From a virus (Duplodnaviria; Heunggongvirae; Uroviricota; Caudoviricetes): 13,572 nt of DNA. Position numbers and translations under genes: made by a program. The notes under the pieces were generated by a model. It did not search any database. It was given only the letters and a program-made list of their open reading frames with translations, and was not told the origin of the DNA. The DNA is taken from IMG/VR virus record IMGVR_UViG_2703719354_000003; one strand, written 5' to 3'. This document shows positions 7,985-13,572 of the stretch, in pieces (within the stretch, counting starts at the first letter, position 1; each line of letters starts with the position of its first letter).

Positions 7985-8170
7985 GCGGATCCACCGGCAG
8001 GCATTGCAGGTCCTGTTGTTGTACCGATGCCGACGGATATTTCCGCATCGGATACAGCGCACCGGATATCTCAGTCTGAAGGTTAACCGTCGCTGGCGGC
8101 TGTTATCGAAAGACGACGGCCGGAACTGGGAAGTAATGAGTCATGAACGTTATTCGGGAGAAATAAAGAA

Positions 8171-8563
8171 ATGATCGACAACCGCACCGCCAGCACCATT
8201 GACCAGGCATTACAGAAACATGATACACCCGTCGGCCCGTTATTTTTTGTAACACGCCACGGAAGAACAAAAAAATGCCTCACCCGAAAAACGGCAATTC
8301 GTTACCTGGCATTCTTTATGACCACCCGCGCTTTTGAACGTTCAGGATTCCGACAACGCTATCCTGACAAGCGTTTTATCTTCAACAGGAATGAGATATG
8401 GAAACGTGGAGAATCAACCACAGAGTATACCCGCGCACACCAGCGAACAATCAGACGACTGCGCAGACTCATCGCCAGGAAACAGTATACAGAAAAATGG
8501 TTCAGAAAATATGACACATGGAGCGCCGGATATTACGAACTGATGGCAACAAAACCATTCTGA
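8171..8563 (+). CDS. Hypothetical basic protein (130 aa)
   Basis: Arg/Lys-rich ORF in the operon orientation; GGGAG about 10 nt upstream of the ATG; function unknown. Confidence 0.45.
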   Translation: MIDNRTASTIDQALQKHDTPVGPLFFVTRHGRTKKCLTRKTAIRYLAFFMTTRAFERSGFRQRYPDKRFIFNRNEIWKRGESTTEYTRAHQRTIRRLRRLIARKQYTEKWFRKYDTWSAGYYELMATKPF

Positions 8564-8623
8564 CGTAAACGAAATTAACCATGACGCAATTAAATAAGGC
8601 AAGCCGAATACATCAGGAGGACC

Positions 8624-8812
8624 ATGAACATTTATTTCAGAATAGTTATATCACTGGCAATTATCACATGTATTTACGGATTAATCGTTCCGGCCCTCAT
8701 ATCAATGAAGGATACGGTAGCAGTGATTTCTGGCTTTGCTCTGGCGTGTCTGACCCCGCCCTGCATTTATGCCATTTATAAGGGTCTTTCTTTTTCTAAG
8801 GATAAAAGATGA
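8624..8812 (+). CDS. Small membrane protein (62 aa, two predicted hydrophobic helices)
   Basis: Two hydrophobic stretches (IVISLAIITCIYGLIVPALI and VAVISGFALACLTPPCIYAIY); GGAGG just upstream of the ATG (short 3-nt spacer); stop overlaps the start of the SPFH gene (ATGA at 8809-8812). Confidence 0.55.
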   Translation: MNIYFRIVISLAIITCIYGLIVPALISMKDTVAVISGFALACLTPPCIYAIYKGLSFSKDKR

Positions 8813-9636
8813 AAAAATTACTTTTTGCTTTAGCCCTTGTTCTGCCGACCATTGGCCTTGTCGGTTGCGATCGCGTTGAGCCTGGTAATGTGGGCATCAA
8901 AGTAAACAAACTGGGCGACGATAAAGGCGTCGGTGAAGTGGTCGGTGTTGGGCGCTACTGGACGGGATGGAACACTGAGGTTTACATCTTCCCGACCTTT
9001 AAGCAGATGAAGACCTACGATGATCCATTCAGTTTCCAGATGAGTGACGGTACAACCATCGGCTATCACATCGGCGTGGCCTACAAAGTTGATCCATCCA
9101 AAGTTACCACAGTCTTTCAGACCTACCGCAAAGGCGTGGACGACATTACCGACACCGACCTGCGCCAGAAGATAGCCGACGCACTCAACCGACTGGCCAG
9201 CAAAATGACCACCGACAAATTTATCGACGGCGGCAAGTCTGAGCTGCTGGATGCAGCTCTTAAAGACATTCAGGAAGAAATGACGCCCATCGGTATTCAG
9301 GTAATGAGCCTCTCATATGTGGGTAAGCCGGAGTACCCACCTACTGTTATCGACAGCATTAATGCCAAAGTCACGGCGAACCAGAAAACCCTGCAACGCG
9401 AGCAGGAAGTAAAACAGCGCGAAGCGGAAGCCAACATGTTGCGCGCGGAAGCTGCCGGACAGGCAGATGCGATTCGCACAAAAGCCCAGGCCGAAGCCGA
9501 TGCTATTCGTTTACGCGGTGAAGCTCTGCGCCAGAACCCCGGTGTTATGGAGCTGGAAGCCATCAACAAGTGGAACGGTACACTGCCGCAATACATGACC
9601 AGCGGTGCCAACACACCATTTATTCAGGTTAAGTAA
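8809..9636 (+). CDS. SPFH/band-7 (stomatin/prohibitin/HflK-C-like) domain lipoprotein
   Basis: Signal peptide with lipobox LVGC (Cys 20); SPFH-like core followed by an Ala/Glu/Arg/Gln-rich coiled-coil (QREQEVKQREAEANMLRAEAAGQADAIRTKAQAEADAIRLRGEALRQNP) typical of HflK/C and stomatin-like proteins. Confidence 0.75.
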   Translation: MKKLLFALALVLPTIGLVGCDRVEPGNVGIKVNKLGDDKGVGEVVGVGRYWTGWNTEVYIFPTFKQMKTYDDPFSFQMSDGTTIGYHIGVAYKVDPSKVTTVFQTYRKGVDDITDTDLRQKIADALNRLASKMTTDKFIDGGKSELLDAALKDIQEEMTPIGIQVMSLSYVGKPEYPPTVIDSINAKVTANQKTLQREQEVKQREAEANMLRAEAAGQADAIRTKAQAEADAIRLRGEALRQNPGVMELEAINKWNGTLPQYMTSGANTPFIQVK

Positions 9637-9679
9637 TACATATGCCCGGTATTACACGCCGGGCTGTCTGGAGATAAAA

Positions 9680-10429
9680 ATGAATATTGTAACCATCAAC
9701 AACAAACAGTTTCCGGTAATCGAATATCGCGGTCAGCGTGTTGTGACATTTGCAATAATTGATGACGTCCACCAGCGCCCGGAAGGTACCGCCCGTGCTG
9801 CGTTTAACCGCAACCGTTCTCACTTTATCGAAGGGGTGGATTTTCTTGAAATGACTGCGGACGTAATACGTACGGAGTCACTTTCTGATGCCTTTGCCGC
9901 GCGAACTGCCAAAGGGATCATTCTTTTCGAGTCTGGTTACCTGATGTTGACGAAGCCTTTTAACGATGCTCTTGCATGGCAGGTTCAGCGCGAACTGGTT
10001 AACAGCTATTTCCGAACTCACGCGCCGCTGACGGAAATGGAGATGATCGCTGCAATGGCCGCCGATGCCGTTCGCCAGCAGAAGCGCCTGAGTCATGTTG
10101 AAGAGAAGATCGAAACGGTCACCAAAGCTGTGGAGAACATCAAACGCGGCACAATGCGCACCGGATATGTCGGTTACCGCCAGGTGGTAGCCAAAAGCGG
10201 AATGAGTGACGCCAAGTGTCGGAATCTGGTCAACGCCTACCACATCCCTACCGACACGCACGAATTTATGACTCCGGACGGTCTGTTGTCTCGCAGGGCT
10301 GTCGTCGAGCTTGAGACATTTATGGCGGCGTTCCACCAAATGATGTCAGAGGCTGAACCACGCGGCACACGCTGGTATCACCCGAAGATGGGGCTTTTTC
10401 AGGTAATCGGATGGGAGGATAAAGCATGA
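9680..10429 (+). CDS. KilA-N/ORF6N-domain protein (phage antirepressor-like)
   Basis: N-terminal MNIVTINNKQFPVIEYRGQRVVTFAIIDDV...GYLMLTKPFNDALAWQVQRELVNSYF resembles KilA-N/ORF6N domains of phage antirepressor or Rha-like proteins; GGAG 6 nt upstream of ATG 9680 (the ORF-track start 9605 is an in-frame upstream GTG). Confidence 0.6.
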   Translation: MNIVTINNKQFPVIEYRGQRVVTFAIIDDVHQRPEGTARAAFNRNRSHFIEGVDFLEMTADVIRTESLSDAFAARTAKGIILFESGYLMLTKPFNDALAWQVQRELVNSYFRTHAPLTEMEMIAAMAADAVRQQKRLSHVEEKIETVTKAVENIKRGTMRTGYVGYRQVVAKSGMSDAKCRNLVNAYHIPTDTHEFMTPDGLLSRRAVVELETFMAAFHQMMSEAEPRGTRWYHPKMGLFQVIGWEDKA

Positions 10430-10994
10430 TCATCCAGTCAAAACTTATTCGCGCCGCTCTGGTGTGCGCTGCTAAAAACGACGTTCGTTATTACCTGAAC
10501 GGTCTTCACATCACGCCAAAACATATTGAGGCAACCAATGGTTTCGTAGCACTGCGCATGACTCACGGCATCCGGACGAAGAAAAACATCATTGTCCAGT
10601 TCGAAGGTGGCGTCCCGGCCAAAGCCGAAACGACAGAGCTGATTTTTAGTAAAGAGCCGATCCTGTTCATCGCGACCAGTTTCAGCGCCGGCTGTCCATT
10701 ACCGGCATTAAATTGGTGGACGGTTGTTTTCCGGATTTGGAACGCATCATTCCGAAAAAATTTGACCTCTGTACACACCCGGTGATCCAGGCGGGTTACC
10801 TGAGTTATCCAGAGAAGATGTTTGGTCGTGAGCGTAAATTTATTCCCGTCCAGTTACGTTCCTCCGGTGACGGGCAAGCGGTCAGAATTCAGTTTGATTC
10901 CATCATCAACTCAATGTATGGCAATCCTGAATTTGTTGTGATGCCTTGTCGTGATCATGGCGATTTCAATGTGGCTCAGGAGCATCCGGAATGA
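10426..10994 (+). pseudogene. DnaN (DNA polymerase III beta sliding clamp) domain II-III homologue, interrupted by a frameshift near 10687-10697
   Basis: Frame 1 (10426-10785) encodes ...AKNDVRYYLNGLHI...ATNGFVALRM..., matching the E. coli DnaN domain II start (QDVRYYLNGM...ATDGHRLAV); frame 0 (to 10994) encodes ...RLSITGIKLVDGCFPDLERIIPKK...EFVVMPCRD, matching DnaN FIFTSKLVDGRFPDYRRVLPK and the C-terminal AYVVMPMRL. Homology continues across the frame change, so the two ORFs are one disrupted gene. Confidence 0.6.
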
Positions 10995-11117: not shown

Positions 11118-11360
11118 ATGTTCGCTTTGATTCAACGCGGTCAGATATACACGGACAGAGCCGGATACCCCGTGGTGATTACTCGCATCACTGAGCACTC
11201 AGTGTTCTTTCGACGGATGGACGGACGATCCGGGCGGGTACGCATTGGTGAGTTAAACTGCCTGTTCGAACATATTGACCACCAGGAGTACCGCAAAATT
11301 CTCGCGGACACTGAGCAGGAAAAGCACCTGAAAAAATTACGAGCCATAAAAAGGAAGTAA
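11118..11360 (+). CDS. Hypothetical protein (80 aa)
   Basis: ATG 11118 with GGGGA 8 nt upstream, 4 nt after the preceding stop; the ORF-track start 11082 is an upstream TTG. Function unknown. Confidence 0.5.
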   Translation: MFALIQRGQIYTDRAGYPVVITRITEHSVFFRRMDGRSGRVRIGELNCLFEHIDHQEYRKILADTEQEKHLKKLRAIKRK

Positions 11361-11518: not shown

Positions 11519-11728
11519 ATGGGGCTGGATTGCGTGCCTATATCAACCTACTGCCGCGACGCGGGAGAAACGGTTGATGCCGTTAACAAACGGATACAAA
11601 GAGGAATATGGAAAGAAGGGGTTCATGTATTAAAAGTCGACGGAGTTAAAGAACGCTGGGTCGACTTAATAGAGGTTTCAAAATGGGCAAGAAAGAACAA
11701 GGATTATTATCTCTGCCAAGAGGAGTAA
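11519..11728 (+). CDS. Excisionase-like small protein (assigned by position upstream of and overlapping int)
   Basis: 69-aa basic protein immediately upstream of and overlapping the integrase gene, the typical xis-int arrangement; sequence resemblance to excisionases is only tentative. Confidence 0.45.
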   Translation: MGLDCVPISTYCRDAGETVDAVNKRIQRGIWKEGVHVLKVDGVKERWVDLIEVSKWARKNKDYYLCQEE

Positions 11729-12861
11729 CTATTCGTAAGCATAAAACTGCTTCAACACTAGTTATCACTTTCACATATAAAGGGGTTCTTTGCAGGGAGC
11801 CCCTGTCTCGGCTTGAGGCAAATACACGTGGTATTAAATATGCTGAGCGCCTGCTAGGGGAGATACAAAATCAGATCGCCAGCGGAACGTTTGAATATGC
11901 GAAATATTTCCCCAGTTCCAAAAAACTGGAGTTATTCGGTGTAGTAAAGAAAACCAAAAATATTAAGTCCTATCTTGATGAATACCTGAAAATTTGCATG
12001 AACCGCAATCTGTCGCCGTCAACCATTGGCGGTTACGAAAAATGTCTATCAGCACTATCAGAACTACATAAACTACATGTAACAGAATTGACGCCTGCGG
12101 TACTAAAAAATTGGATAGCCAGCCGAAAAACTAAGCTGAAAACAATCAGGAATAACCTGTCATTTCTGCGCAGCGCCATTGATGAGGCTGTAACTGATGG
12201 CCTGTTGACTATTAACCCGGTAACTCTTGTCAGCGCCAGCCGGTATCACGTGGTCGACAGTAAACCGAACGCCGACGATTACGAAGTTGATCCGTTTGCG
12301 CCTGCGGAAACCAGTGCCATATATCAGCACTGCAAGTATCAGGAATGGCAGAATCTGTTCCGCTTCGCCTTCAATACAGGGCTACGCAGCTCTGAGCTAT
12401 GCGCATTACGTTGGACCGATATCGACTTTATAGGTAATACAGCGCACATACAGGCGGCCAGTGTCGTAGGGGTACTTAAAGGCACCAAGACAAAAGCCGG
12501 TACCCGTAAGGTGGAGCTGAACAGTGAGGCGCTGGCGGCCCTGCAGGCGCAGAAGCAATACACCTTTATGAAAAGTGAGTTCATATTCAGCGATCCGAAA
12601 ACGGGAGATCCCTGGACGAACGCCGACGCTATCCGTAAAAAAGCATGGGTGCCGACCCTGAAAAAAGCTGGTGTGCGCTACCGTAACCCGTACCAGACGC
12701 GCCACACATTCGCCACCAGACACATTAGCCAGGGTGTAAACCTTTTCTGGCTTGCCGGGCAGATGGGGCATAAGGGGCCGGAAATGCTGTTCCGCAATTA
12801 CGGTAAATACCTGGCTGAATACGACGGGAAAACCGCAATGGAATCTGGAATGAAGAAGTGA
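11683..12861 (+). CDS. int: Tyrosine recombinase / phage integrase (lambda-Int family)
   Basis: C-terminal catalytic signature: R in NTGLRSSELCALRW, H-x-x-R in RHTFATRHI, and the nucleophile Tyr in HKGPEMLFRNYGKY; N-terminal arm-type region; 392 aa. Confidence 0.9.
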   Translation: MGKKEQGLLSLPRGVTIRKHKTASTLVITFTYKGVLCREPLSRLEANTRGIKYAERLLGEIQNQIASGTFEYAKYFPSSKKLELFGVVKKTKNIKSYLDEYLKICMNRNLSPSTIGGYEKCLSALSELHKLHVTELTPAVLKNWIASRKTKLKTIRNNLSFLRSAIDEAVTDGLLTINPVTLVSASRYHVVDSKPNADDYEVDPFAPAETSAIYQHCKYQEWQNLFRFAFNTGLRSSELCALRWTDIDFIGNTAHIQAASVVGVLKGTKTKAGTRKVELNSEALAALQAQKQYTFMKSEFIFSDPKTGDPWTNADAIRKKAWVPTLKKAGVRYRNPYQTRHTFATRHISQGVNLFWLAGQMGHKGPEMLFRNYGKYLAEYDGKTAMESGMKK

Positions 12862-12873
12862 TTTGAAGAAAAA

Positions 12874-12897
12874 ACCCGGCAAATGCCGGGTCTTTTT
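12874..12897 (+). terminator. Intrinsic terminator after int (potentially bidirectional)
   Basis: ACCCGGC-AAAT-GCCGGGT hairpin (12874-12891) followed by CTTTTT; A-run upstream gives a T-run for the convergent minus-strand gene. Confidence 0.7.
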
Positions 12898-12902
12898 GAT
12901 GG

Positions 12903-13572
12903 TTATTCTGTCGCGCCACCTATCGAAACATAATCATGAAATTGATCGTCAATGAGTCGGTCCTTACAGATAACATGTACAATGTGACGACAACAGTTTT
13001 CATCATCATACGCACGACCCCAGCGAACAATCTCATCTACAGACAGATCATTCGCACTCCATGGCAAAGTACCTGAAACGCCACGCGCACCTGGACCAAG
13101 TATGTCCATAAATTTCTTCGTGCGTGAATTGTAGATCCGTACCTCGGCAATTCGAATGATGCTACTAGCCCAAAGAGCACCACCGGCAATACTTTGAATG
13201 TTATCGCAGATGAGAAACTCATGCTTTCGCGCAAGCATTTTATAGATCTCACGCGCCAAACCTGCTGATTGGAAATCCTGTGCGATAACAGCGCTTTTCA
13301 CTTGCTTTCCGGTCATCATCTGACCGTTCTCTTCGATAAAATTAAAGTCGTTGAACTGTATACGACCTATTCTTATCGTTTTGTTATCGTCTACCATATC
13401 AAGACCCAAGAGGGTATTGACCAGATCCTGCATTGGAACCTTCGAATCAAGAAGGTCACTGTGAACCGCCCCGGGTTTCCTGGAGAGTATTTTATCTGTG
13501 AACTCAGGCTGCCAGATCATCGTTTCCGATGGAAGCATAATAAGCTTTTTCTGCTTCTGCCGGAGGAGTATG
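12903..13572 (-). CDS. Hypothetical protein, 5-prime-partial (N-terminus beyond the window end)
   Basis: Reading frame stays open upstream of the first in-window Met through position 13572; appears AT-richer than the prophage replication genes by eye; no motif confidently assigned. Confidence 0.55.
   Translation of the reverse strand, partial: ILLRQKQKKLIMLPSETMIWQPEFTDKILSRKPGAVHSDLLDSKVPMQDLVNTLLGLDMVDDNKTIRIGRIQFNDFNFIEENGQMMTGKQVKSAVIAQDFQSAGLAREIYKMLARKHEFLICDNIQSIAGGALWASSIIRIAEVRIYNSRTKKFMDILGPGARGVSGTLPWSANDLSVDEIVRWGRAYDDENCCRHIVHVICKDRLIDDQFHDYVSIGGATE

What the first reader, a model, noticed from the sequence alone, without database searches (positions are those of the whole stretch)
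12862..13572. Convergent gene of unknown function immediately beyond the integrase terminator
The gene abuts the probable attachment-site end of the prophage, looks compositionally foreign (AT-richer by eye), and its 220-plus-residue visible portion has no motif I can assign (no Walker, HExxH, DPPY or clear PLD HKD motifs seen). Integration sites next to int are frequent landing pads for defence or cargo islands, and the rest of the gene and its neighbours lie outside the window.
Basis: partly seen in the sequence, partly recalled or inferred. Interest (0 to 1): 0.45.

Follow-up and report, generated by a model that had tools for sequence, protein, structure and literature searches.

The report
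IS629-truncated GNAT-like phage cargo gene
The "unknown gene" beside the integrase is the broken remainder of a rare two-gene cargo cassette that many kinds of temperate phage carry. It encodes a very distant relative of acetyltransferases whose function nobody has tested, and in this window an insertion sequence has cut it.

Summary
A convergent gene does lie beyond the int terminator, but it is not an intact gene running off the window. Only 12903-13461 (- strand; codons 71-255 plus the stop) belongs to it. From 13462 the sequence is the end of an IS629 (IS3-family) element, so the 211-aa ORF is an IS::gene chimera.

In intact relatives (E. coli E110019, NCTC9112, PhiR12 phages) the gene encodes 255 aa. 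A 113-aa gene sits 11 nt upstream of it. Both lie inside the prophage, between int and the att core, which is the 3' end of ssrA (tmRNA). The gene is therefore phage cargo, neither a host gene nor a separate island.

The pair is rare: 10 of 5,426 complete E. coli genomes and 56 representatives among 1.84 billion proteins. It always travels as a pair and sits in at least seven contexts: lambdoid int-att, Q-lysis, siphovirus tail, myovirus baseplate, SSU5-type phage-plasmids, a filamentous prophage after zot, and a stand-alone chromosomal site. That pattern is typical of a moron.

Pfam, NCBIfam and PADLOC find nothing. The predicted structure and weak profile links place the large protein in the GNAT acyltransferase fold, and the partner looks like a partial GNAT fold.

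Function is untested. I favour a self-regulated toxin-antitoxin- or defence-like module with a GNAT-fold effector; a two-subunit acyltransferase is nearly as likely. The copy in this window is dead.

The parts
11519..11728 (+). Excisionase gene (69 aa). It overlaps the int start by 46 nt.
   Evidence: phrog_2917 excisionase, E=2.5e-41; ORF list.
11683..12861 (+). Tyrosine integrase (392 aa) of an ssrA-integrating lambdoid prophage.
   Evidence: Pfam Arm-DNA-bind_2 (E=4e-21) and Phage_integrase (E=2e-19); phrog_1 integrase. Integration at ssrA is shown in related loci.
12869..12897 (.). Bidirectional intrinsic terminator shared by int and the convergent gene. Stem 12874-12891, A-run upstream, T-run downstream.
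   Evidence: Terminator scan; sequence read directly. Identical in E110019, NCTC9112 and PhiR12_1.
12903..13461 (-). 3' remnant (codons 71-255 plus stop) of the 255-aa GNAT-fold gene, the large gene of the two-gene moron (phrog_3307). A pseudogene here.
13254..13271 (-). Codons for QSAGLA (residues 134-139 of the intact protein): a GNAT motif-A-like loop (Q/R-x-x-G-x-G/A) immediately before predicted helix 138-149.
   Evidence: Alignment A2 (G137 and L138 invariant, A136 and A139 nearly so); secondary structure of the model. Not conserved in the wider family.
13462..13572 (-). Right end of an IS629 (IS3-family) insertion: the terminal inverted repeat starts at 13462, and the 3' end of transposase orfB (...YYASIGNDDLAA*) occupies 13504-13572. 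The window ends inside the IS.
   Evidence: 100% identical to the end of the 1,310-bp IS3-family element in E110019 (L001 6001-6111); 99% identical to copies annotated IS629 OrfB in Stx phages (H35); orfB C-terminus translated.
13462..13538 (-). IS-derived 5' part (25 codons plus 2 nt) of the chimeric 211-aa ORF 12903-13538. It is not part of the cargo gene.
   Evidence: Residues 7-34 of the chimera hit PHROGs 33794 and 31974, which match only this N-terminal stretch of the chimera.

Best explanation
WHAT IT IS (shown). Window 12903-13461 (- strand) is the C-terminal 185 codons of a 255-aa gene cut by an IS629 insertion at 13461/13462. The intact gene is the second gene of a two-gene moron cassette. 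The cassette consists of its own promoter and leader, a 113-aa gene (phrog_2594), an 11-nt gap, the 255-aa gene (phrog_3307), and a bidirectional terminator. In this lambdoid prophage the cassette sits between int and attP, and the att core is the 3' end of ssrA. The same obligate pair occurs as cargo in unrelated temperate phages: siphovirus, myovirus, phage-plasmid and filamentous. The large protein has a divergent GNAT (acyl-CoA N-acyltransferase) fold. The small one is predicted to be a partial GNAT-like beta-sheet protein.

HOW IT PROBABLY WORKS (inferred; about 40% for this version). The pair is a self-contained, probably self-regulated module expressed from the prophage. The GNAT-fold protein is an acyl-transferring effector that modifies a cellular or phage target. 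The more conserved small protein, translated just before it, binds and controls or neutralises it. This would be a toxin-antitoxin, addiction, or abortive-infection type of arrangement that benefits maintenance of the element or excludes other phages.

IN THIS WINDOW. The effector gene has lost residues 1-70, which include the invariant N-terminal M-x-P..Y-x-K-x-L motif and the first strands. It is also cut off from its promoter and partner. It is a dead remnant. Any product would be an IS-fused, truncated protein.
For: IS junction and truncation. The alignment with three intact copies breaks exactly at the IS terminus. The blastn map of the window on E110019 agrees.

Cargo status. Empty site smpB-ssrA-ypjA in strain 144. 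The 27-nt identical ssrA core lies 334 nt beyond the partner gene. The pair is present in five PhiR12 phage genomes. It is present in only 10 of 5,426 complete E. coli genomes. A related int carries alternative cargo.

Obligate pair and moron behaviour. The partner lies immediately upstream in every context examined: Yersinia tail module, Pantoea baseplate module and Q-lysis interval; SSU5, next to parA; next to another integrase; stand-alone between pgl and ybhC; after zot in a filamentous prophage; a ParA-linked contig. The two families are of matching size, 31 and 35 clusters.

TA-like features. Small upstream gene with an 11-nt gap, or a 16-nt overlap in SSU5 and L019. A conserved promoter-like element followed by the inverted repeat GATAAC-N4-GTTATC across contexts. 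Residence on many mobile elements and next to partition genes. Two independent knock-outs hit the large gene while the partner stays intact: IS629 here, and a -1 frameshift in a T8 run in PhiR12 phages.
Against: No experiment exists for any family member, and no paper cites the accessions.

The motif-A glycine is not conserved in the wider family (SSU5 has DSARIG), so acyl-CoA binding is unproven.

The partner has no RHH/DUF1778 or other recognisable DNA-binding domain. It is more conserved than the large protein, the reverse of the usual toxin-antitoxin pattern. Its GNAT-like fold fits an accessory-subunit role at least as well as an antitoxin role.

The promoter and operator are consensus or conservation matches only. 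Two inactivating mutations could equally be neutral decay in a prophage that is degrading anyway.

What lies beyond the IS in the source strain is unknown.
Confidence: 0.8

Rival explanations
1. Two-subunit acyltransferase. The 113-aa GNAT-like protein is an accessory or acceptor-binding subunit of the 255-aa GNAT-fold catalytic subunit, i.e. a 'split tandem GNAT', as in enzymes with one degenerate GNAT domain. The enzyme would acylate a small molecule, a cell-envelope precursor, or a host or phage protein. The outcome could be lysogenic conversion, resistance, or anti-defence (AcrVA5 is a precedent for a mobile-element GNAT that acetylates Cas12a; this is from my own knowledge).
Against: No substrate clue and no linked biosynthetic or envelope genes in any context. 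Motif A is variable in the wider family. The conserved inverted repeat at the promoter and the recurrent loss of the large gene fit a toxic effector somewhat better.
Confidence: 0.33
2. One reading: an intact gene of more than 220 residues continues beyond the window edge and belongs to the host or to a separate island at the att site.
For: The reading frame is open from 12903 to the window end.
Against: The last 111 nt are IS629 and not gene sequence; intact alleles diverge at 13461. The gene lies inside the att-bounded prophage and in phage genomes. It is absent from 5,416 of 5,426 complete E. coli genomes and from the empty ssrA-ypjA site.
Confidence: 0.02
3. Non-catalytic GNAT-fold pseudoenzyme pair. 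The proteins act by binding only, for example as an inhibitor of a host or phage factor or as a superinfection-exclusion protein, without acyl transfer.
For: The pyrophosphate-loop glycine is not conserved family-wide. No GNAT Pfam model reaches threshold. The conserved segment 159-166 is modelled with low confidence.
Against: Invariant polar residues (K11, Q123, Y143, D156, Q159) across proteins only 20-30% identical suggest chemistry and not merely a scaffold. Motif A is well kept in the enterobacterial clade.
Confidence: 0.15
4. The IS junction is an assembly chimera, and the gene is actually intact in the source strain.
For: The window ends inside a multicopy IS, which is typical of draft contig ends. 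No public contig with this junction was found. All ten complete genomes carry an intact gene.
Against: The break is exactly at the first base of the IS terminal inverted repeat (TGAACCGCC...), as a real transposition gives, and not at an arbitrary point inside a repeat. IS629 occupies another site in the same prophage of the sister strain E110019, flanked by a clean 3-bp duplication, and the window has that site empty. This indicates the IS inserts at different sites in this prophage lineage.
Confidence: 0.07

Closest known systems
GNAT-type type II toxin-antitoxin systems (TacAT, AtaRT, KacAT, ItaRT)
   Different: The large protein is 240-260 aa, against about 160-175 aa for the known toxins, and has an extra N-terminal beta region and a C-terminal insertion. 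It hits no Acetyltransf Pfam model at threshold. The partner has no DUF1778/RHH domain and is predicted as a beta-rich GNAT-like fold. Toxicity and aminoacyl-tRNA acetylation are untested.
GNAT superfamily enzymes with a degenerate second GNAT domain (FemX, MshD, N-myristoyltransferase, SidF, VipF)
   Different: Here the two folds are separate polypeptides encoded by a phage moron. The partner has only about 110 aa, a partial fold. No activity is known.
Phage morons (for example lambda lom/bor, HK97 gp15, stx operons at the Q-lysis position, ctxAB after zot in CTXphi)
   Same: An autonomous transcription unit with its own promoter-like element and terminator, inserted between conserved phage genes at the classical moron positions: int-att, Q-lysis, tail module, after zot.
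   Different: A two-gene cassette of unknown function. It is unusually promiscuous, occurring in tailed, plasmid-like and filamentous phages.
IS629 (IS3 family) insertions in EHEC/EPEC prophages
   Same: Terminal repeat TGAACCGCCCCGGG..., 99-100% identity to annotated copies, insertion within prophage DNA, and a 1,310-bp element with a 3-bp duplication in the sister strain.
   Different: Nothing unusual. Only one end lies in the window, so the target duplication at this site cannot be checked.

Membership tests
GNAT (acyl-CoA N-acyltransferase) superfamily | Mixed alpha/beta GNAT fold (beta1-alpha1-alpha2-beta2-4-alpha3-beta5-alpha4-beta6-7). | tested here: met
GNAT (acyl-CoA N-acyltransferase) superfamily | Motif A pyrophosphate-binding loop Q/R-x-x-G-x-G/A between beta4 and alpha3. 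| tested here: inconclusive
   Present as QSAGLA or RGAGLA at residues 134-139 in all 29 enterobacterial sequences. The glycine is replaced in SSU5-type and other distant members (DSARIG, EGVHIT).
GNAT (acyl-CoA N-acyltransferase) superfamily | Sequence match to a curated GNAT model at or above threshold. | tested here: not met
   No Pfam or NCBIfam hit for the protein. Only sub-threshold Acetyltransf_1 hits in 3 of 34 relatives, best E=0.007. The family profile does reach GNAT-domain proteins at E of about 1e-4 to 1e-5.
GNAT (acyl-CoA N-acyltransferase) superfamily | Binds acyl-CoA and transfers the acyl group. | not testable with these tools
   Needs biochemistry.
GNAT-toxin / DUF1778-antitoxin TA systems (TacAT, AtaRT, KacAT) | Antitoxin with a ribbon-helix-helix / DUF1778 domain encoded upstream. 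| tested here: not met
GNAT-toxin / DUF1778-antitoxin TA systems (TacAT, AtaRT, KacAT) | Bicistronic operon, small gene first, on mobile elements. | tested here: met
   11-nt gap in the enterobacterial clade and a 16-nt overlap in SSU5 and L019. Found in phages, phage-plasmids and next to integrases.
GNAT-toxin / DUF1778-antitoxin TA systems (TacAT, AtaRT, KacAT) | Toxin arrests growth by acetylating aminoacyl-tRNA and is neutralised by the antitoxin. | not testable with these tools
   No experimental data found.
Known anti-phage defence systems (PADLOC-DB v2.0) | HMM match of either protein to a catalogued defence protein. | tested here: not met
   No PADLOC hit for the 255-aa protein or for the 113-aa partner as read from NCTC9112. 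The 81-aa short annotated form of the partner in E110019 gave only a weak chance-level match, Cas8b at 13 bits.
Phage moron | Independent unit (promoter, gene(s), terminator) inserted between conserved phage genes, at different positions in different phages. | tested here: met
   At least seven contexts. Terminator. A promoter-like -35/-10 conserved across four contexts. Promoter activity itself was not tested.
IS629 / IS3 family | Terminal inverted repeat and near-identity to annotated copies; orfB C-terminus. | tested here: met
   13462-13572 is 100% identical to the end of the 1,310-bp IS3-family element of E110019 and 99% identical to IS629 OrfB-annotated copies. The orfB C-terminus was read.
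IS629 / IS3 family | 3-bp target-site duplication flanking the element. | not testable with these tools
   The other end is outside the window. The junction was not found in public contig collections. The E110019 copy shows a 3-bp duplication.
ssrA-integrating lambdoid prophage | Tyrosine integrase plus an att core identical to the 3' end of the tmRNA gene. | tested here: met
   int domains. A 27-nt identical core at the int-side junction in NCTC9112 and E110019, compared with the empty site in strain 144. The core itself is not in the window.

The most novel reading that the evidence does not exclude
The 113-aa/255-aa pair could be a previously undescribed, self-regulated two-protein system built from two GNAT-like folds: a 'split GNAT' toxin-antitoxin, abortive-infection or exclusion module. 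It would spread as a moron among tailed, plasmid-like and filamentous temperate phages of Gammaproteobacteria and act by acylating a translation or phage component. The window holds an IS-killed copy, but intact alleles (E110019, NCTC9112) would allow a direct test.
Probability: 0.3. Interest if true: 0.6.

Novelty: new variant of a known kind. Interest (0 to 1): 0.35.

Why it matters
As it stands in the window, the locus is a pseudogene fragment plus an IS end, which is ordinary prophage decay.

The value lies in the family it points to. This is a rare and strictly paired two-gene cassette, with no Pfam, NCBIfam or PADLOC assignment and no literature. It has been captured at the classical cargo positions of very different temperate phages, including the ctxAB position of a filamentous phage and a site next to parA in phage-plasmids. 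Cargo of that kind has repeatedly turned out to be defence, exclusion, addiction or virulence functions.

A divergent GNAT-fold effector with a GNAT-like partner would be a new architecture for such a module. It is cheap to test from existing strains.

The analysis also fixes the integration site (ssrA) and shows that the int-att interval of this integrase type is a variable cargo slot.

Tried and rejected
- Pfam, NCBIfam and PADLOC scans of the chimeric ORF, the full-length protein and the partner gave no usable hit.
- PDB sequence searches with three profiles returned only chance matches: a MAP kinase, ferritin and fascin at E>0.2.
- Foldseek against AFDB50 was not available. BFVD gave only weak NAT_SF-type hits with TM below 0.5.
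- Exact search for the IS::gene junction in genome, metagenome and viral contig collections, and look-up of the chimeric protein, found nothing, so the sequence beyond 13572 could not be recovered.
- Literature searches for the accessions, the PHROG ids, the PhiR12 phages and GNAT-based anti-phage systems found nothing relevant.
- DNA-level comparison of the cassette between contexts showed homology only from the ribosome-binding site onward. The conserved leader was seen only after aligning the 160 nt upstream.
- Rfam found no RNA family in the region or in the leader.
- Host housekeeping gene: rejected, because it is absent from the empty site and from 99.8% of genomes.
- Separate island outside the prophage: rejected, because it lies inside att and inside phage genomes.
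- Compositional foreignness as evidence: rejected, because the 4-point GC difference is smaller than the variation within the prophage.

Full report
THE OBSERVATION

The window ends with xis (11519-11728, +), int (11683-12861, +; Pfam Arm-DNA-bind_2 and Phage_integrase), and a GC-rich hairpin (stem 12874-12891). The hairpin has an A-run before it and a T-run after it, so it can terminate transcription from both sides. A - strand ORF follows, ending at 12903. The convergent gene is therefore real.

The ORF tool lists it as 12903-13538 (211 aa), and the frame stays open to the window edge. I aligned the window with three intact relatives: E. coli E110019, NCTC9112 and phage PhiR12_1. Identity is 99-100% up to 13461 and stops there. 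From 13462 the window reads TGAACCGCCCCGGGTTTCCTGGAGAG...

This stretch is 100% identical to one end of the 1,310-bp IS3-family element annotated in E110019. It is 99% identical to copies annotated IS629 OrfB in Stx phages, and it accounts for the thousands of hits in E. coli genomes. The C-terminus of the transposase (...YYASIGNDDLAA*) lies on the - strand at 13504-13572.

The 211-aa ORF is therefore a chimera. Its first 25 codons are IS sequence, codon 26 spans the junction, and the remaining 185 codons are residues 71-255 of a 255-aa protein (WP_000035091.1 / WP_042199616.1). PHROG 3307 matches it only from profile position 74 onward, which agrees.

GC content is 44.2%, against 48.3% for the window. 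That is a real difference, but it is smaller than the variation inside this prophage.

WHERE THE INTACT GENE SITS

In NCTC9112 the order is:
- int stop;
- 41 nt containing the terminator;
- the 255-aa gene (- strand);
- an 11-nt gap;
- a 113-aa gene (- strand);
- a 334-nt non-coding stretch;
- a copy of the last 36 nt of ssrA;
- 160 nt;
- the stop of the host gene ypjA.

Strains with an empty site have smpB-ssrA-ypjA. Their homology to the prophage junction begins inside the 3' end of ssrA, with a 27-nt identical core, CGGGTTCAACTCCCGCCAGCTCCACCA. The prophage is therefore integrated in the tmRNA gene, and both small genes lie inside it, between int and attP.

Five PhiR12 phage genome records, with K-12 or E. 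coli C given as host, contain both genes.

The ssrA core is not in the window. In this strain it must lie beyond the IS, if it is still present.

THE SLOT IS VARIABLE

Integrases 94% identical to this one, in O26/O103 EHEC prophages and in phage phi467, lose homology about 28 nt before the int stop. They are followed by a different gene (DUF4760) in the same position. The cassette itself is present in only 10 of 5,426 complete E. coli genomes. In each it is single-copy, chromosomal and covers the full query at 99% identity or more.

THE SOURCE STRAIN

The window is nearly identical to the E110019 prophage: 8 mismatches in 6 kb, then 100% over 2.3 kb. It lacks the IS629 copy that E110019 has at window position 11164-11166, where E110019 shows a 3-bp duplication. 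Instead it has an IS629 end in the cargo gene.

The break lies at the exact IS terminus, which argues for a real transposition and against a mis-join. I could not find the junction in any public collection, so I cannot show the other side.

WHAT THE PROTEIN IS

Neither the full-length 255-aa protein nor the partner hits anything in Pfam, NCBIfam, PADLOC or PDB sequence searches. They belong to PHROGs 3307 and 2594, both of unknown function.

Homologues are few. There are 31 clusters at 90% identity among 5.8 billion proteins, all from Enterobacterales. A profile search of 1.84 billion representatives found only 56 hits.

The weakest of those hits are proteins whose Pfam GNAT domains cover the matched stretch. 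Three of 34 family members give sub-threshold Acetyltransf_1 hits.

Residues 134-139 (QSAGLA; RGAGLA in relatives) lie just before helix 138-149 and fit motif A. However, the glycine is not kept in distant members such as SSU5.

Across proteins only 20-30% identical, the invariant positions are P3, K11, Q123, Y143, D156, Q159, W167 and W204. Nearly invariant are M1, L13, R103, G163 and Y180.

I conclude that this is a distant GNAT-fold family. Catalysis is plausible but unproven.

THE PARTNER

The 113-aa protein has a matching distribution, 35 clusters, several from contigs of the same length as those that carry the large gene. It is more conserved than the large protein.

THE PAIR IS AN OBLIGATE, MOBILE CASSETTE

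In every locus I fetched, the small gene lies immediately upstream of the large one. The contexts are:
- between the tail tube and tail chaperone/tape-measure genes of Yersinia siphovirus-like prophages;
- inside the baseplate module of a Pantoea myovirus-like prophage;
- between Q antiterminator and the lysis genes, on the opposite strand, in Enterobacter/E. coli prophages;
- between the lysis genes and parA in phage-plasmid SSU5 and a similar contig;
- next to a different integrase;
- as a stand-alone pair between pgl and ybhC;
- after zot in a tandem filamentous prophage, the position that ctxAB occupies in CTXphi (the CTXphi comparison is from my own knowledge).

The upstream genes are homologous in all cases (hhalign probability 97-99%).

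DNA homology between contexts starts at the ribosome-binding site. Aligning the 160 nt upstream nevertheless shows several conserved features:
- a -35/-10-like element (GTTGAA ... TAtACACT / TATCAT);
- an inverted repeat, GATAAC-N4-GTTATC, just downstream of it;
- in three of four contexts, a terminator-like hairpin with a T-run about 45 nt before the start codon.

Together with the bidirectional terminator, this is the anatomy of a moron.

MECHANISM

Shown: the anatomy, the pairing, the mobility and the fold. Inferred: everything about function.

I favour, at about 40%, a self-contained effector-plus-controller module of the toxin-antitoxin, addiction or abortive-infection type. The reasons are:
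- the order small-gene-first with tight coupling;
- a palindrome at the promoter;
- residence on many kinds of mobile element and next to partition genes;
- the precedent of GNAT toxins;
- two independent knock-outs that hit the large gene and leave the partner intact. One is IS629 here. The other is a -1 frameshift in a T8 run in PhiR12_1, with a matching two-piece protein match in all five PhiR12 records.

Against this reading:
- the partner has no DNA-binding or DUF1778 domain;
- the partner is the more conserved of the two;
- the partner itself looks GNAT-like, which fits an accessory subunit of a heteromeric acyltransferase (about 33%);
- a non-catalytic binding role (about 15%) cannot be excluded, given the variable motif A.

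Membership in the TacAT/AtaRT family is rejected, because the antitoxin type and the toxin model match were tested and not met. 'Works like' remains open.

THIS WINDOW'S COPY

It lacks residues 1-70, which include the invariant N-terminal motif and the first strands. It is also separated from its promoter and partner by the IS. Any expression would have to come from read-out of the IS, and the product would be a truncated fusion. I regard it as a pseudogene.

The prophage is degrading in other ways too. In the near-identical E110019 copy, Q antiterminator, a TerB-family gene and another ORF are annotated as frameshifted or interrupted.

VERDICT

The locus itself is ordinary decay, an IS-killed cargo gene. 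The family it belongs to is an uncharacterised, strictly paired, widely travelled phage moron with a divergent GNAT-fold protein. It is a reasonable candidate for experimental follow-up using the intact alleles.

Noticed in passing
window 11164-11166, compared with L001 6001-7310: The sister strain E110019 carries a 1,310-bp IS629 copy here, flanked by a 3-bp duplication. The window has this site empty and has an IS629 end at 13462 instead. IS629 therefore occupies different sites in this prophage lineage.
   Followed up: yes
L002 about 6034-6070 (PhiR12_1); corresponds to L003 about 8065-8075: All five PhiR12 phage records give a two-piece protein match to the large gene. In PhiR12_1 the cause is a 1-nt deletion in an A8/T8 run (codons D-F-F-L-D) that splits the gene into two annotated ORFs, while the partner gene is intact. 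It could be a real second knock-out or a homopolymer sequencing error.
   Followed up: partly
L003 8625-8775 (- strand); L005 5500-5650; L009 5497-5647; L011 5500-5651: The cassette has a conserved leader: a -35/-10-like element, the inverted repeat GATAAC-N4-GTTATC, then a terminator-like hairpin with a T-run about 45 nt before the partner's start codon. It could be an operator and an attenuator. No Rfam family matches it.
   Followed up: partly
L016 5940-6848; L017 4941-5849: Prophages and phage phi467 with a 91-94% identical integrase carry a DUF4760 gene instead of the GNAT-like pair downstream of int, followed by a CP4-57-type integrase (tandem elements at ssrA). The int-att interval is a variable cargo slot.
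   Followed up: partly
L023 5656-6735: A distant version of the pair (108 aa and 244 aa) sits directly after zot in a tandemly duplicated filamentous prophage (Rep_trans, DUF1293, Zot), at the position where CTXphi carries ctxAB.
   Followed up: partly
L019-L021 4603-5792: A stand-alone version of the pair (137 aa and 263 aa, overlapping by 16 nt) lies between pgl and ybhC near bioA/bioB in some enterobacterial chromosomes, with no phage genes nearby.
   Followed up: no
window 1-78 (- strand): A partial match, cut by the window edge, to the Rfam sRNA family STnc100 (48.7 bits; gathering threshold 47).
   Followed up: no
window about 627-1023 and 10426-10994: In the 99.9%-identical E110019 prophage, the Q antiterminator gene and a hypothetical gene at these positions are annotated as frameshifted, and a TerB-family gene has an internal stop. 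The prophage is probably defective.
   Followed up: partly
window 7956-10429: The early-left region carries several accessory genes: a ParE-family toxin-like ORF (7956-8174), an SPFH-domain protein (8809-9636) and an ORF6N-domain protein (9680-10429), according to the E110019 annotation.
   Followed up: no
L001 9829-10170: RefSeq annotates the partner gene in E110019 as 81 aa from an internal start. The full 113-aa frame is intact and identical to that of NCTC9112.
   Followed up: yes
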